From Eledone cirrhosa (lineage: Eukaryota): a DNA stretch of 64,000 nucleotides. The stretch covers positions 77,934,001 to 77,998,000 of the forward strand of contig OZ024743.1 in NCBI GenBank assembly GCA_964016885.1, given 5' to 3'. Position 1 is the stretch's first letter. Every line of letters starts with the position of its first letter. Position numbers and translations under genes: made by a program. Under the pieces are notes generated by a model. The model did no database searches, was not told the DNA's origin, and saw nothing but the letters and a program-made list of their open reading frames with translations. Shown here piece after piece: positions 1 through 64,000 of this stretch.

Positions 1-284
1 TTTTATATATATATTTAAAAGTTGAATTTAAACGATGTTTGCAAGAACTGAATAAATTGTTCCTCAAATTAATAGAGTTCTTACTTTTTAGTATAAAGAT
101 TATTTCTTCGACACAAAGGGAACAATTTTTGGATAAAGCAGTGTATGAAGGAGCTTTGGAGATAATATTCCAAAGTAAAGAATAGATAATGTTCTTTGTT
201 TTCAGGTCCCATAGTAAGTTAGATAGAGAAGTTGAAGATTTTTTACCAATATTTGTAAAAGAACATTTATGGTTATTAAAACAT
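1..284 (-). mobile_element. Naiad-type Penelope-like element, C-terminal GIY-YIG endonuclease fragment (runs off the window)
   Basis: Minus translation FNNHKCSF...STSLSNLLWDLK...CSLCVEEIIFILKSKNSINLRNNLFSSCKHRLN aligns by eye with the endonuclease end at about 47760-48050. Confidence 0.85.
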
Positions 285-45057: not shown

Positions 45058-45536
45058 ATTAAATAAATGGAAAACTATATTTATAAAACCATATTTATTT
45101 CATTATATATATTTCGGGGATATCATATTAACAATATGCTATGCCTTCATCAGACAAAATACAATATAAACAGTTTTATAGATAAATATATTCGACATAC
45201 CGTAATAAACATCGACTTCATTTGAAGAGGTTTACGCTAGCAGTGAAAATACAGAGAGAGAGAGAAAGAAAGAGAGAAAAAAAGAGAGAAAAAAAAGAGG
45301 GAAAAAAAAGAAAGAAAGACAAAACGAAGAAAAGGAAGAAAAAGAAGAAAAGAAAAAGAAGAAATGCATGGAACAAAATAGAGAGATGGAAAAATAGATA
45401 AAGCGAAGAGCTTCATGTAAAGAGACAGAAAGAAATATATATATATATAGAGAGAGGAAATAGAGATAGATACATATATATATATAGAAAATTAGGTAGT
45501 GGGAGGTCTTTTTGAGTAAGTGTATCAATGATACAT

Positions 45537-45571
<35 letters not shown>

Positions 45572-48500
45572 GCTCAAGTATTAATGTAAGGGAGATATAT
45601 AGAGAGATATAGAGAGATATATAGAGAGAAAAAAATTTAAAAATAGCCAGACATATTCGAGGCGTAGAAAACCCTATGTTTTAATGTATTAGTATTTATA
45701 AAACTTACACTACATTGTAAATATCAGTATTCCTGAATGAAACAAGTATTCACAATGTGTGAAAATTCATTATCTTATGTTTAGTTTTAAAAAATTCATA
45801 TGTTTATGTGACAGCTACAAACATCAATGTGAATCCAACTGATTCACTCTGCAAACTCTAGGTTACCGGAAAAACATTCTCAATGTGGTATAAAAATTTG
45901 AGCGTATTATTATTCTTGCGATTACTCTACAAGATTATCTATCAAGCAGAAATAGAGAGCAGATTTCAATATACTAATCAAAAATATATATTATATTAAT
46001 ATAACTAATAGATAAATCTGACTCTTTTATAACGAGAATCAGGTGGCGTGCATTCCACTTTGATAAATCTAATGCAGACGAAAATATCTCGGACTTAAAC
46101 AAAGTTTTCAAATCTAAAAGAAATCCACCCCCTAACAAACTTTTATCTGACTTTGAAAACGATATAATTTCTATCATACAAGGGGTCAAATTCAAGAGAA
46201 ACTTTAAAGGCCAGGAATATCTGAAAGGCATTAAGGATAACATTGAGAGCTTAGAGAAAACTGAGAAGATCTTGGTGAAATCTGACAAGACCAACAACCT
46301 CTATGGAGTGCGGAAAGACATGTATAATGGCCTCATACTGAAAGAGCTGAGGAAAAAATACAAGGTAGCAGATAAGGCCGAACTAGAGAAAATGAATGTT
46401 GAAGCATCTTGTATAATGCATGAGTTGGAAATTGAGAACAGAACACAACCTTTCGTGCCCAGGAAACCGAAGATCAATATGAAGGACCACAAGAGGAATT
46501 TTGAAAATGACCTGCCAGTTAGATTGATCGCACCTTCAAAATCGGAGCTGGGCAAATTAAGCAAAAACATTCTTGACAGGGTGATACAGCAAATTAAGAA
46601 CTTGGATTGTGTATCTAACCTGAGCTTGTGGAAGGGAACTGGAGAGGTTGTTGAGTGGTTTAGGCAAATTAAATATAACAATAATAATAGGTTTATTCAA
46701 CTTGATATAGCTAACTATTATTCTTCTATTACCCCTAGTCTACTAAATAAGGCACTAAATTACGCATTCAAACATACGGACCTAACTAGCAAAGAAATGC
46801 ATATTATATTATCGGCTAGGAAAACTTTGATAGAATTTAATGACAAATTATGGACCAGAGCAGATAGAGATAGCAATTTTGACATAACTATGGGATCTTC
46901 CGACTCAGCTCAGGTAACTGACCTTGTGGGCTTATTTTTAATCAACTCGCTACATAGGAAAATACCTGGTACTACCGGAGGTTTATATAGGGATGACATG
47001 CTTTTACTTATTAATAATAATAACCCTGAACTAAATAGAAAATGTAAACAAATTACAAAATTTTTTAATTACTTTAACCTTAAAATAGAAATTGAGAACA
47101 ACCATAGAATAGTCAATTTCCTAGATATAACATTAAATCTCAACACATGTCTCCACTATCCTTTTCACAAGTTGAATGAAAACTTAAACTATGTCAACTT
47201 TAACTCTAACCACCCCAGATCTGTCAAAAACACTATAGTAAACTCAGTCCAAAAACGTATCTCTAGGATCTCGTCGAATAGAAAGATTTTTGACGAAAAG
47301 GCCCAGTACTATAATGATGCACTAGCTAGGGCAGGGTATGCTGATAAGATTGTGTACATAGATAATGATAGACAAACTAAACAAAGTAACAAATTTGGTT
47401 TGCCCCCCCTTTCTCACTAAACATTAAAACCCACATCGCTAAATTATTTTTCAAAGCTCTTGATAATCGCTTCCCTAGAGCACATAGGTATCACTCAATC
47501 TTCAATAGGCATACAATTAAATTAACCTACTCATCCACCAAAAATTTAGCACAAAATATTAATAGAATAAATAATAGGAACTTAAAACCTACTGATCATA
47601 GCATAAATAATATACAAGTTAACAAATGTAACTGTAGAGATAGATCTAAATGTCCGTTAAATAACAACTGCTTAGTTAAAAATATAGTATACAATTGTAA
47701 TGTTAATACTGACTCTAATTCTTTTAACTACGTCGGTTCCACATCGACGGAATTTAAACTTCGCTATAATAACCACAAGAATTCTTTCACAGATCCAAAT
47801 AAAAAATCTTCAACGGCACTATCAGGCGTACTCTGGCAACTTAAGCTAGATAACGTTAGATATTCGACGGCTTGGAATATAGTCTCAAGAGGGATTCCTT
47901 TTAATTCATCCTCTGAGACATGTGACCTCTGCGCAGAGGAGATATTCTTTATACTAAAATCTAAAAATTCCCTTAACCTACGGACAAATTTATTCAGTTG
48001 TTGCAAACATAGATTAAACTCAACGTTTAAATATAAATTTAAATTTAAAATGTAGTATATTTAGTTTGATTTATATTTATATGAGAACTAGCCGATAAAT
48101 TTTTTTGATTCCTAAATTTTTGATTCCCTCTTTTTACTCTTTTTATTGTTTATTTTATTTTATTTATTTTTATTTTTATCTAAACATTCCTCATGAAAAA
48201 TTAAGCTACCCTAAAAGCCGATGCTCCAAATTTTTTGAATTAACCTTACACTAGATAAACTTCTATATTAAATATAGGAACATATGTAGACATAATTGGA
48301 CATCATAATCTTTTTGAGATGTTCTTTGCTAGATGTGATTTGATAGATAATTTTTGGCTTTGTCTTGTAATGAACTTGGCAATATATTGTCAATTAACTT
48401 TGAAGGGTTGTTCTTTGTGGTTTATTTTTATTTTTATTTTTATTTTTATTTTTATTTTTATTTTTATTTTTATTTTTATTTTTATTTTTATTTTTATTTT

Positions 48501-49207
48501 TATTTTTATTTTTATTTTTATTTTTATTTTTATTTTTATTCTTTTAGTATTGTAGTATTCTATAATATTTTTTATTTTTTATTTTTATTTTATTTTTAAT
48601 ATGTTTAATTATCTTTAATATGTAAATTTTTAATACGTAATATTTTTTAATACGTAGTATTTTTAATATGCAATATTTTTATTATGTAATATTCTTTCGT
48701 AATATTTTTTTAGTTTTTCTATTCTATATTTTTACTTATTATTATTATTATTGTTATCTTTTTATTTTTAGTTTTGTTTATAATATAATATATATTTTTG
48801 ATTAGTATATTGAAATCTGCTCTCTATTTCTGCTTGATAGATAATCTTGTAGAGTAATCGCAAGAATAATAATACGCTCAAATTTTTATACCACATTGAG
48901 AATGTTTTTCCGGTAACCTAGAGTTTGCAGAGTGAATCAGTTGGATTCACATTGATGTTTGTAGCTGTCACATAAACATATGAATTTTTTAAAACTAAAC
49001 ATAAGATAATGAATTTTCACACATTGTGAATACTTATTTCATTCAGGAATACTGATATTTACAATGTAGTGTAAGTTTTATAAATACTAATACATTAAAA
49101 CATAGGGTTTTCTACGCCTCGAATATGTCTGGCTATTTTTAAATTTTTTTCTCTCTCTATATCTCTCTATATCTCTCTATATATCTCCCTTACATTAATA
49201 CTTGAGC

Positions 49208-49242
<35 letters not shown>

Positions 49243-49811
49243 ATGTATCATTGATACACTTACTCAAAAAGACCTCCCACTACCTAATTTTCTATATATA
49301 TATATGTATCTATCTCTATTTCCTCTCTCTCTCTATATATATATTTCTTTCTGTCTTTTTACATGAAGCTCTTCGCTTTATCTATTTTTCCATCTCTCTA
49401 TTTTGTTCCATGCATTTCTTCTTTTTCTTTTCTTCTTTTTCTTCCTTTTCTTCGTTTTGTCTTTCTTTCTTTTTTTTCCCTCTTTTTTTTTTTCTCTTTT
49501 TTTCTCTCTTTCTTTCTCTCTCTCTGTATTTTCACTGCTAGCGTAAACCTCTTCAAATGAAGTTGATGTTTATTACGGTATGTCGAATATATTTATCTAT
49601 AAAACTGTTTATATTGTATTTTGTCTGATGAAGGCATAGCATATTGTTAATATGATATCCCCGAAATATATATAATGAAATAAATATGGTTTTATAAATA
49701 TAGTTTTCCATTTATTTAATATTGTAAATATACTCCAAATATTTGTCGAGTGCTTTTATATCAGTTATAAATATTTACTAGTTGTAACCCAACAATTTTA
49801 AATATAACTTT

Positions 49812-49815
<4 letters not shown>
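45052..49815 (+). mobile_element. Naiad-type Penelope-like element with about 945-bp inverted pLTRs, in (TA)n
   Basis: Inverted repeat 45052-45998 vs 48780-49726. RT ORF about 46004-47420 (KSDKTNN, QLDI..YY, MGS, LYRDD, NFLD). Frameshift near 47390, then IWFAPPF, CNCR..CP...C, IVY...YVG, CDLC and LN.R....CKH to the stop near 48054. Confidence 0.93.
49617..49682 (+). ncRNA. Type I hammerhead in the Naiad pLTR (matching inverted copy at 45096-45161, minus strand)
   Basis: tattttgt-CTGATGA-a-gg...catatt/aatatg...cc-GAAA-tatata-TA-atgaaata, with a palindromic stem III. Confidence 0.65.
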
Positions 49816-49873
<58 letters not shown>

Positions 49874-61722: not shown

Positions 61723-62121
61723 TATATATAATATTCGTTCTACTAATTTATCATTTTCGTTTTACTAATTTATTTACATTATTCTTAACTCTCAAGCCGA
61801 GAATCATTCAGTTTCCTAAATAGAATATTAGTCTAACAACTCTATTTATACCATAAACGTGGTTTTGTCTTTGCGTGTAATTGTTCTCAACGCTCCACTA
61901 ACGACGTAATATCTTCGCTTTTTCCGTTCATCGACAGGGAACGTTTCCACGAACCAAAGTATCGTCTTTCTGTTTTCTTTCGGTTGCAACGTTTTTGAAA
62001 TATTTAATTGTGCTTTCACAGATTGATTTTTTTAGTTTCAGAAGATCTCGTTAAGGGTAAAAGCAGCAATTCTTTGCTTAAACTTTAATCTGTTATTTTA
62101 ATAAATATTATATATATATTA

Positions 62122-62223
<102 letters not shown>

Positions 62224-62231
62224 TAATATAC

Positions 62232-62755
62232 ATTCATGTATACATCGCTCTGAAATAGCGATGTATACATGAATATATGTATAGTATATTTGGCAATATA
62301 CTGTATGCTTAATTAAAAACATTTTGAAGACCTTGCGCTATTGTTTGTTGAAAAAAGAAGTAAGTGACATAGTCACTACTTTAAAATAATAGCTTAAGGT
62401 CTTCAAAATGTTTTTAATTAAGCATACAGTATATTGCCAAATATACTATACATATATTCATGTATACATTGCTATTTCAGAGCACCAATCCTAATTTTCA
62501 ATATATGCTGGACCAGCAATCGTTCTGTATAATCAGTTCCTGATTATTACTGGAATTCTATAAGAATCCAGTATCTATAATTTTCAACAAACATCGGCGA
62601 GTGCTAAGCTCTGATGATCACCAACAGTGTGAAACAGATCTGTCAGCTTATCTCCCTTTGTTTGTTGAAAAAAGAAGTAAGTCACATAGTCACTACTTTA
62701 AAATAATAGCGGAAGGTCTTCAAAATGTTTTTAATTAAGCATACATACAGTATAT
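62232..62755 (+). mobile_element. Retrozyme-like mini element: 317-bp-period direct repeat plus a 5' inverted arm
   Basis: Direct repeat 62341-62435 vs 62658-62755; inverted repeat 62247-62342 vs 62388-62483; adjacent to (TA)n. Confidence 0.8.
62605..62650 (+). ncRNA. Type I hammerhead ribozyme with canonical core and GUC cleavage
   Basis: taagct-CTGATGA-tcac caaca gtgt-GAAA-cagatctg-TC-agctta. Stem I is extended by ttcaacaaaca/tgtttgttgaa. Confidence 0.88.
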
Positions 62756-64000
62756 AAGCACAAGGCCAGCAATTACCCAGTACATTACTGGTACTTTATT
62801 TTATCGACCCCGTAAGGATGAAAGGCAAAGTTAACCTCGGCAGGATTTGAACTCAGATTGTAAAGGGACGTAACTATGCTAGAAAGCATGGCGTCCAACC
62901 CTCTACCGATACTGCCAATTCACACGATAGATAATGATTACAATATTTGTGAGTAAAGACTCTAGTCCCACACTTTTGAAGGTTTATTATAACATCCTGT
63001 GGCTCTTTTGAGCTTGCGCATTTTTCATGTCTAGTTTAATATTTTTTTTAAGGCATCGATTGTAATAACTCTAGTTAAACATGATATATATTAATAATAA
63101 ATTATCGTTGTAATGTAATTAGATTATATAATTGTTATTATAAATGATCTTATAAATATGAGTGTAAGATGTATAAAAATATTTTCAGACTTTTAATATA
63201 AACAACAACAAAAAACAATCAATATTAAATCAATATATTATACATAATAGAAAACATAAAATAAATAAACAATATAAAAATAAATTATTTACATACAATT
63301 GCAATTATCAGTCTATATAAATTTTCTTTATTCCCTGAGCAAATTAATGAGATTTGTTCTTATTGCCCATAATTTGATGACTTTTTGGAGTGTATTAAAA
63401 GATAACAACAATTTGTGATTAAATTGTTATCTTAAGCAACGCCCTTTTTAATAGTTGTTGGCTGAGCGAAATTGGAAAAGCCTATGAGCAAATATTTTAA
63501 AAAATACACAAACTACATTTCCCTGTAATCGGAACTCTGCCTATACTCGATTGCAATATATAAAGAGGAACAAGATACAAAGATATATTTCTTTATTTGG
63601 CACAAGGGCGCAAACAAATGGGACATTACAGAAGATGAATATACGCTATTTTGAAGTGTTTAAAATTTTTTTACAAACAAAAATTTAGAATCGTTTTGTA
63701 CAAATGATAAATTAAAAAATATTTGTACAAACTTTTACGATAGACTTTCATCTTATCTATTGACCGCCTAACCCTAACCCTAACGTCAATATATTACATT
63801 TGTTTTAAAAATAGTTAATATGAATTTAAAAAAATCATATAACGACGAAATAACAAAAATAAATGAACTAGGAAAACAAACAAAAAAACATGGCGGATGC
63901 TTTTGAGCAACACTTACTCTGATTGGTTGAAAATTAGCCAATGGCATGTAATCACCACGGCCACGGTCAGACCTTGAAAAAAAAATTGACGATCTACACA

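What the first reader, a model, noticed from the sequence alone, without database searches (positions are those of the whole stretch)
62232..62755. About 317-nt retrozyme-like unit with a canonical hammerhead (candidate cephalopod circular RNA)
Seen: a 317-bp-period terminal redundancy (62341 vs 62658) with no ORF. It holds a clean type I hammerhead at 62605-62650 (6-bp stem I, CUGAUGA, GAAA, palindromic stem III ACAGAUCUGU, GUC site) plus a distal stem-I extension, with a 5' inverted arm next to (TA)n. Established: metazoan non-LTR retrozymes are small type I hammerhead repeats that yield circRNAs and are thought to use Penelope-like RTs. Inference: this is a copy of a circular RNA template of about 317 nt.
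Basis: partly seen in the sequence, partly recalled or inferred. Interest (0 to 1): 0.75.

Follow-up and report, generated by a model that had tools for sequence, protein, structure and literature searches.

The report
Hammerhead retrozyme riding Hydra Penelope enzymes
This is one aged copy of a widespread, protein-free 317-letter repeat that carries a predicted self-cutting RNA motif; its mirror-image insertions in TA repeats suggest that a Penelope-type enzyme copies one, probably circular, RNA from two start points at once, although cutting and circles are untested.

Summary
In detail: 317-nt period, type I hammerhead at 62605-62650, inverted 5' arm beside (TA)n. One correction: stem II opens with a U·U mismatch, and Rfam scores it below threshold. 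The unit is a dispersed non-coding family with two sister subfamilies whose stems covary. It is not a pseudo-LTR: none of 88 loci has a coding element running directly into it. Arm 3' ends sit at two sites 35-45 nt apart, mostly on (TA)n. In two-armed copies the arms use different sites in 52 of 56 cases. The young sister family forms arrays of up to about 28 near-identical units, often with locus-wide variants, which fits rolling reverse transcription of one monomer, though some arrays are mosaic. Two insertions pair a retrozyme arm with a truncated Hydra-clade Penelope-like arm; this is suggestive only. No RNA data were available. Verdict: new member of the animal non-LTR retrozymes, with useful mechanistic footprints. 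This scan noted similar two-armed retrozymes on other DNA before.

The parts
62101..62230 (.). (TA)n microsatellite at the left end; inferred target site
   Evidence: in a 40-locus sample 39 have a (TA)n run within 330 nt downstream of the cut site, and 48 of 73 outer arm ends in 49 loci join (TA)n
62227..62249 (+). 23-nt sense piece of the unit (u110-u132) folded back on the left arm, with a 3-nt overlap
   Evidence: sequence; repeat family D4
62247..62346 (-). Inverted left arm (unit positions u44-u143 on the minus strand)
62341..62657 (+). Full 317-nt unit of family A; non-coding, 32% GC; 8 differences from the family majority, none in the hammerhead
62446..62462 (+). Site 1: AU-rich position where many family copies end on (TA)n; inferred reverse-transcription start
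62491..62500 (+). Site 2: second fixed 3' end, 35-45 nt downstream of site 1; 340 exact unit-(TA)n junctions genome-wide (subfamilies A and C together)
62397..62542 (+). Central region (u57-u202), 77% identical to sister family B; holds both end sites and small covarying hairpins; candidate RT-binding element (inferred)
62581..62671 (+). 13-bp basal stem (62581-62593 with 62659-62671, or with 62342-62354 in a monomer or circle) closing the hammerhead; its sequence differs between families A, B and C but stays paired
62605..62650 (+). Type I hammerhead motif, predicted cut after C62644; U·U at the base of stem II; palindromic stem III, likely dimer-active
62658..62755 (+). Partial second unit (u1 to about u94). 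In the duplicated locus 280 kb away it runs to u120 (site 1); the window lacks about 1.06 kb here

Best explanation
This is an aged copy of a dispersed, non-coding, hammerhead-bearing 317-nt repeat family that is likely pasted into (TA)n microsatellites by a Penelope-like RT/endonuclease, probably of the Hydra clade, copying a unit-length and probably circular RNA from two internal start sites at once. Steps: (1) Shown: family, structure, and partial-tandem or two-armed inserts with fixed 3' ends on (TA)n and variable 5' ends. (2) Inferred from known retrozymes: multi-unit loci are transcribed, hammerheads cut (probably as dimers), and monomers are ligated, with the basal stem holding the ends together. 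(3) Inferred: a Penelope-like protein cuts both strands of (TA)n, and each free 3' end primes on the same RNA, one at site 1 and the other at site 2. (4) Inferred: each RT runs through the cleavage junction, sometimes many times, and the two cDNAs join 5'-to-5' by 0-5 nt of microhomology. The window copy has an intact ribozyme motif but only one hammerhead, so it is probably a dead end rather than a source.
For: Family: 42 near-full matches at 91-100% among 40 scored of 3168 candidates; 251 exact 26-mers of the hammerhead 3' half, control 0. Structure: 90.4% of cells pair, 43 cells show two-sided changes, 0 of 500 shuffles reach either value, and slid controls pair at 31-45% (related sequences inflate such counts). 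The basal stem is 10-15 bp in 21 of 26 rows, with different sequences in A, B and C. Ends: 56 of 58 arm ends in an unselected 40-locus sample, and 60 of 75 in the first 48 loci, fall at site 1 or 2. Pairing: two-armed copies with both ends at a site use different sites in 16/18 and 15/17 (A), 10/10 (C; the query favoured site 2) and 11/11 (B). Family B: 13 loci with up to about 28 units per locus; 8 of 13 carry a variant in every unit, and in 4 of 13 it is private to the locus. In family A, rare variants are shared within a locus at 32/439 (tandem) and 12/139 (inverted), against 25/11559 across loci. Not a pLTR: no coding element runs directly into the unit in 88 loci; 0 of 19 and 0 of 11 other copies of two Hydra families carry the unit, apart from one weak 49-nt AT-rich match. 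Partner: hybrids L031 and L183 join a unit arm to a 5'-truncated Hydra arm with 5-nt and 3-nt microhomology. The L031-family ORF has RW, DKT, CxCX5C, CxxC and CxH motifs and a (TA)n end, the Hydra features listed in PMC8557442 section 11. Internal RT initiation at two adjacent sites, and cutting and extension of both strands, are shown in vitro for a Poseidon PLE (PMC11167929).
Against: No expression, cleavage or circle was observed. Some family-B arrays are mosaic: the same double change recurs 10 units apart (L126), another 5 units apart (L133), and L138 and L139 are mixed, which a single monomer circle does not explain. In PMC11167929 the unprocessed RNA was the main substrate and hammerhead mutants still inserted. 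In the Li et al. preprint, 8 of 9 tested Xenopus dimers did not cleave. Most rare variants in family A are not shared within a locus. The hybrids are 2 of 88 loci; by my rough estimate (about 2% Hydra ORF coverage nearby), about 0.5 would be expected if 5' joining deletes target DNA into a neighbouring element, so they are not significant under that null. The central region shows no similarity to the four Hydra elements compared, so the matching partner family was not found. Octopus Naiad PLEs also prefer (TA)n, though they are described as remnants in cephalopods.
Confidence: 0.7

Rival explanations
1. Same element and same Penelope-like enzyme, but the template is a linear, uncleaved multimeric transcript from a tandem source array; circles are absent or a by-product.
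For: Mosaic and periodic variants in B arrays. Hammerhead cleavage was dispensable in vitro for a Poseidon PLE. U·U at the stem II base and a weak monomer stem III predict slow cleavage; the axolotl HHR_Amex2 with the same U·U cleaved 22% as a monomer.
Against: Four B loci carry variants fixed in every unit (both arms where present) that no other B array among the 13 examined shares. Arms end at internal sites and pass the cleavage site many times. The closing basal stem is kept across three subfamilies.
Confidence: 0.2
2. The unit is the pseudo-LTR of a coding Penelope-like element whose 5'-truncated copies dominate.
For: The insertion anatomy is that of PLEs. Vertebrate retrozymes are often homologous to pLTRs. 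Hydra ORF pieces lie within 4 kb at 8 of 40 loci.
Against: No sense ORF runs directly into the unit in 88 loci. The one sense ORF ending about 820 nt upstream (L172) is separated by a microsatellite. Exposed 5' flanks share no common upstream sequence beyond scattered pairwise repeat matches. The L031 Hydra family and the window's own Hydra copy carry different hammerheads. The 13 family-B loci found are all (TA)n-bounded arrays. Only 88 of several hundred or more family-A copies were inspected.
Confidence: 0.06
3. A DNA-level minisatellite or fold-back repeat spread by recombination, with a vestigial hammerhead.
For: The window locus itself lies in a segmental duplication. Periodic variants show that some DNA-level duplication occurs.
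Against: Fixed 3' ends, variable 5' ends, paired use of two end sites, (TA)n targeting on many contigs and covarying RNA stems are not expected of satellites.
Confidence: 0.04

Closest known systems
Metazoan non-LTR retrozymes (Cervera and de la Pena 2020, PMC7229834, sections 14-17 and passages read, supplement not readable; Li, Clavereau, Pollet bioRxiv 10.64898/2026.07.22.740005, parts 1-3 of 5 read, supplements closed)
   Same: Non-coding 310-317-nt low-GC unit with one type I hammerhead per unit, found as monomers to multimers, structured, coexisting with PLEs; U·U at the stem II base as in axolotl HHR_Amex2.
   Different: No RNA or cleavage shown here. No cephalopod case in the text read. 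The two-armed layout, paired use of two 3' sites and hybrids with a named PLE clade were not described in what I read; those papers propose the PLE link from co-occurrence and pLTR homology.
Hydra-clade Penelope-like elements (Craig et al. 2021, PMC8557442; abstract, section 11, passages and supplement search hits read)
   Same: (TA)n targeting, partial tandems, inverted 5'-truncated arms, type I hammerhead near the 3' end, alternative 3' ends.
   Different: The unit has no ORF and no detected sequence similarity to the four Hydra elements compared; it is a passenger, not a member.
Poseidon PLE of Anolis, in vitro (Frangieh et al. 2024, PMC11167929; parts 1-2 of 4 read)
   Same: Two internal RT start sites that bracket a 30-40-nt tail; both DNA strands cut and extended; AT-rich targets.
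   Different: That study saw no strand difference in start site. Here the two arms of one insertion use different sites in 52 of 56 cases, and the template is a non-autonomous RNA.

Membership tests
Animal non-LTR retrozyme | Short (about 150-400 nt) low-GC unit with one type I hammerhead | tested here: met
   317 nt, 32% GC, motif 62605-62650; Rfam only sub-threshold
Animal non-LTR retrozyme | No coding capacity, no LTR/PBS/PPT layout | tested here: met
   Longest ATG ORF on the circle is 30 aa; copies are partial tandems without LTR layout; PBS and PPT were not searched separately
Animal non-LTR retrozyme | Tandem copies with two or more hammerheads, dispersed in the genome | tested here: met
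   Met by the family (L005, L008, L010, L017, L025 and others). The window locus itself has one hammerhead and would count as a monomer-type copy under the Li et al. criterion
Animal non-LTR retrozyme | Conserved RNA structure | tested here: met
   family B is out of register in alignment A2 at stems I and III, so its pairs there were judged by eye
Animal non-LTR retrozyme | Self-cleavage in vitro | not testable with these tools
   bench assay needed
Animal non-LTR retrozyme | Expressed as monomeric linear and circular RNA | not testable with these tools
   no RNA holder listed; only contigs of unknown kind were available
Penelope-like element (Hydra clade), autonomous | RT plus C-terminal GIY-YIG ORF ending in the unit as pLTR | tested here: not met
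   0 of 88 loci
Penelope-like element (Hydra clade), autonomous | Partial tandem or inverted insertions with (TA)n preference and an optional tail | tested here: met
   it works like one
Rfam hammerhead clan CL00010 | Score at or above a family's gathering threshold | tested here: not met
   HH9 19.4 of 52 bits, E 0.01; none on 10 kb

The most novel reading that the evidence does not exclude
A dimeric Hydra-clade Penelope RNP cuts (TA)n and primes both DNA ends on one circular hammerhead RNA at two different internal sites, rolling round it to write mirror-image arrays. That would name the enzyme that mobilises animal retrozymes, explain the one-sided 30-40-nt Penelope 'tail' as paired use of two start sites, and make family B a currently active circRNA retroelement.
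Probability: 0.4. Interest if true: 0.75.

Novelty: new member of a known kind. Interest (0 to 1): 0.52.

Why it matters
Which reverse transcriptase spreads animal retrozymes, and whether the circle is the real template, is proposed but unproven in the papers read. This superfamily gives concrete reagents and predictions: a 310-nt young family, two mapped start sites, a (TA)n target, natural Hydra copies with long ORFs in the same genome, and a pairing rule (52 of 56) that speaks to how Penelope-like elements make tails and inverted arms. The element class itself is known, and the scan has noted related families elsewhere.

Tried and rejected
RNA evidence: the look-up of sequencing runs listed no RNA holder, which is no evidence either way. 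Three contig sets of unknown kind from one sample (X1-X3) hold the family, with loose (TA) ends near both sites, but cannot show expression, starts or circles. No contig bridged the L183 hybrid junction, which is inconclusive. Pfam found no family for four Hydra ORF pieces, so the clade call rests on motifs compared with PMC8557442, not on a tree. Rfam miRNA hits over 62215-62440 are far below gathering scores and only reflect the inverted arms; rejected. L065 (unit joined to Hydra 3' UTR sequence on both arms) could be a later DNA-level inversion and is not counted among the two hybrids. The A-next-to-B locus L066 has (TA)n between the two and is read as independent insertion. The first (TA)-run distance measure is blurred by TA runs inside the unit, so one search is used for end sites; its coordinates are BLAST ends extended into the TA run. 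Rows dropped before counts: duplicate loci, and the paralog L002; two-armed copies with an end at neither site (9 of 27, 1 of 18, 2 of 12). Literature searches found no paper on cephalopod retrozymes or on paired start-site use. A term search of an O. vulgaris repeat paper (PMC13282606) found no 'ribozyme' or 'retrozyme'. The supplements of PMC7229834 and of the bioRxiv preprint could not be read and may list cephalopod cases. A search of earlier scan notes by sequence found nothing.

Full report
Observation. A strict pattern occurs once in the window and never in 100 shuffles. The unit folds at z -5.9 and the ribozyme domain at z -4.2. It is not fully canonical: stem II starts with U·U, Rfam gives only a sub-threshold HH9 match, and the stem III palindrome favours a dimer. 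The axolotl retrozyme HHR_Amex2 has the same mismatch and cleaves weakly as a monomer and well as a dimer (PMC7229834 section 15). No call names the organism; 'octopus-like' is recalled from genome size and composition.

The locus. Window 56407-64442 is duplicated 280 kb away at 97-98% identity. The paralog runs to unit position 120 and has a C-to-T change in the CUGAUGA core; the window lacks about 1.06 kb, including the last 26 or so nt of the element. The window unit differs from the family majority at 8 positions, none in the hammerhead. With only one hammerhead, it is probably an inert copy.

The family. A genome search gave 42 near-full matches at 91-100% among 40 scored of 3168 candidates, 37 exact 37-nt cores and 251 exact 26-mers, with controls at 0. 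Two sister subfamilies turned up. C is older and about 85% identical to A. B is 310 nt, with a different hammerhead and 77% identity over the central 146 nt. On 26 copies, 90.4% of cells pair and 43 change on both sides, with 0 of 500 shuffles as high and slid controls at 31-45%; the number of pairs with two-sided change (8) is not above shuffles (91 of 500), and relatedness inflates these counts. A basal stem next to the hammerhead keeps 10-15 bp in 21 of 26 rows with different sequences in A, B and C. In a cut monomer it would hold the two ends together (inference).

Insertion anatomy. Copies are partial tandems, often with an inverted arm; 5' ends vary and 3' ends do not. In an unselected sample of 40 loci, 56 of 58 arm ends fall at site 1 (about u106-122) or site 2 (about u151-160); in the first 48 loci, 60 of 75 do. 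One site-2 junction with (TA)n occurs exactly 340 times. In two-armed copies with both ends at a site, the arms use different sites in 16 of 18 and 15 of 17 (A), 10 of 10 (C, where the query favoured site 2) and 11 of 11 (B); each p is about 0.001 or less against a 50:50 null. PLEs are described with partial tandems, inverted arms and a 30-40-nt tail at one end (PMC8557442 passages). A purified Poseidon PLE cuts and extends both strands and starts at two internal sites that bracket the tail (PMC11167929). The pairing here suggests that both cut ends prime on one RNA at different sites (inference). An earlier scan note on other DNA spoke of two fixed start points at once (e1-8807022); I ran the pairing count after reading it.

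Template. Both sites lie 120-170 nt past the cleavage site, and copies run back through it, so the template is a ligated circle or an uncut multimer. Family B has 13 loci, 11 of them two-armed, with up to about 28 units at 99-100% identity. Eight carry a variant in every unit, and four of these variants are private to the locus, as expected if one monomer is copied round and round. In family A, rare variants are shared within loci far more often than across loci (32/439 and 12/139 against 25/11559), but most are unshared later mutations. Against a pure monomer circle, L126, L133, L138 and L139 show periodic or mosaic variants, and uncut RNA was the main substrate for the Poseidon PLE. I put the circle at about 0.7 given the retrozyme reading.

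Not a pseudo-LTR. No RT/EN ORF runs directly into the unit in 88 family-A loci. Exposed 5' flanks share no common upstream sequence, and the one sense ORF ending about 820 nt upstream is separated by a microsatellite. Other copies of two neighbouring PLE families lack the unit (0 of 19, apart from one weak AT-rich 49-nt match, and 0 of 11), and the first family has its own hammerhead repeat. Only a fraction of all copies was inspected.

Partner. At L031 a six-unit arm ending on (AAT)n joins, through a 5-nt microhomology and a 44-nt PLE piece, head-to-head to a PLE that ends on (TA)n. At L183 a 1.4-unit arm joins a 5'-truncated PLE of another family through 3 nt of microhomology. Natural copies of the first family have ORFs of about 800 aa with RW, DKT, CxCX5C, CxxC and CxH motifs, the Hydra-clade features listed in PMC8557442 section 11. 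These hybrids look like ordinary two-armed inserts with one arm from each RNA. They are few: chance coincidence of two 5' ends is unlikely, but about 0.5 would be expected if joining deletes target DNA into a neighbouring element (my estimate). The L183 junction could not be confirmed in other data. The partner whose terminal repeat resembles the unit was not found.

Comparison and verdict. The element meets every sequence-level feature of animal non-LTR retrozymes; cleavage and circular RNA are untested. It works like a Penelope-like element but is not one. Searches found no cephalopod retrozyme paper and no account of paired start sites; unread supplements could change that. The scan has reported similar octopus-type retrozymes on other DNA, though not this sequence. 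Verdict: new member of a known kind, interest 0.52. Its value lies in the mechanistic footprints and in family B as a test case.

Noticed in passing
G000 C20:18.983-18.991 Mb (L125), C4:190.43-190.44 Mb (L126-L127) and 11 other loci: Very young 310-nt hammerhead family B: mirror-image arrays of up to about 28 near-identical units between (TA)n runs; the best candidate for current activity.
   Followed up: yes
window 46005-48055 and 49600-49868: Degraded Hydra-type Penelope-like element (54% identity to the L086 ORF over the RT part) with its own hammerhead near 49626 before (TA)n; 48781-49273 looks by eye like an inverted copy of about 45530-46020.
   Followed up: partly
window 5-283: Minus-strand fragment matching the Hydra endonuclease C-terminus.
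   Followed up: no
window 56407-64442 and L034: Segmental duplication, 280 kb apart at 97-98% identity; the window copy lacks about 1.06 kb at 62755.
   Followed up: partly
window 62755-62920, also 37397 and 44058: Short interspersed repeat right after the element; SINE-like by recall, not tested.
   Followed up: no
L067, L075, L078, L144, L145, L159, L169, L139:9050: Another very common hammerhead type with AT-rich stem I and a long stem II, ending on (TA)n; probably terminal repeats of further Hydra families.
   Followed up: no
L069-L087: This Hydra family also has two alternative 3' ends on (TA)n, about 95 nt apart, both downstream of its hammerhead.
   Followed up: partly
L065:4325-5193: Family-A unit at the axis of an inverted repeat, joined on both arms to Hydra 3' UTR sequence, next to another Hydra ORF remnant.
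   Followed up: partly
L066:1881-2500: An unrelated perfect 310-nt direct duplication just upstream of the family-B array; the matching length is unexplained.
   Followed up: no
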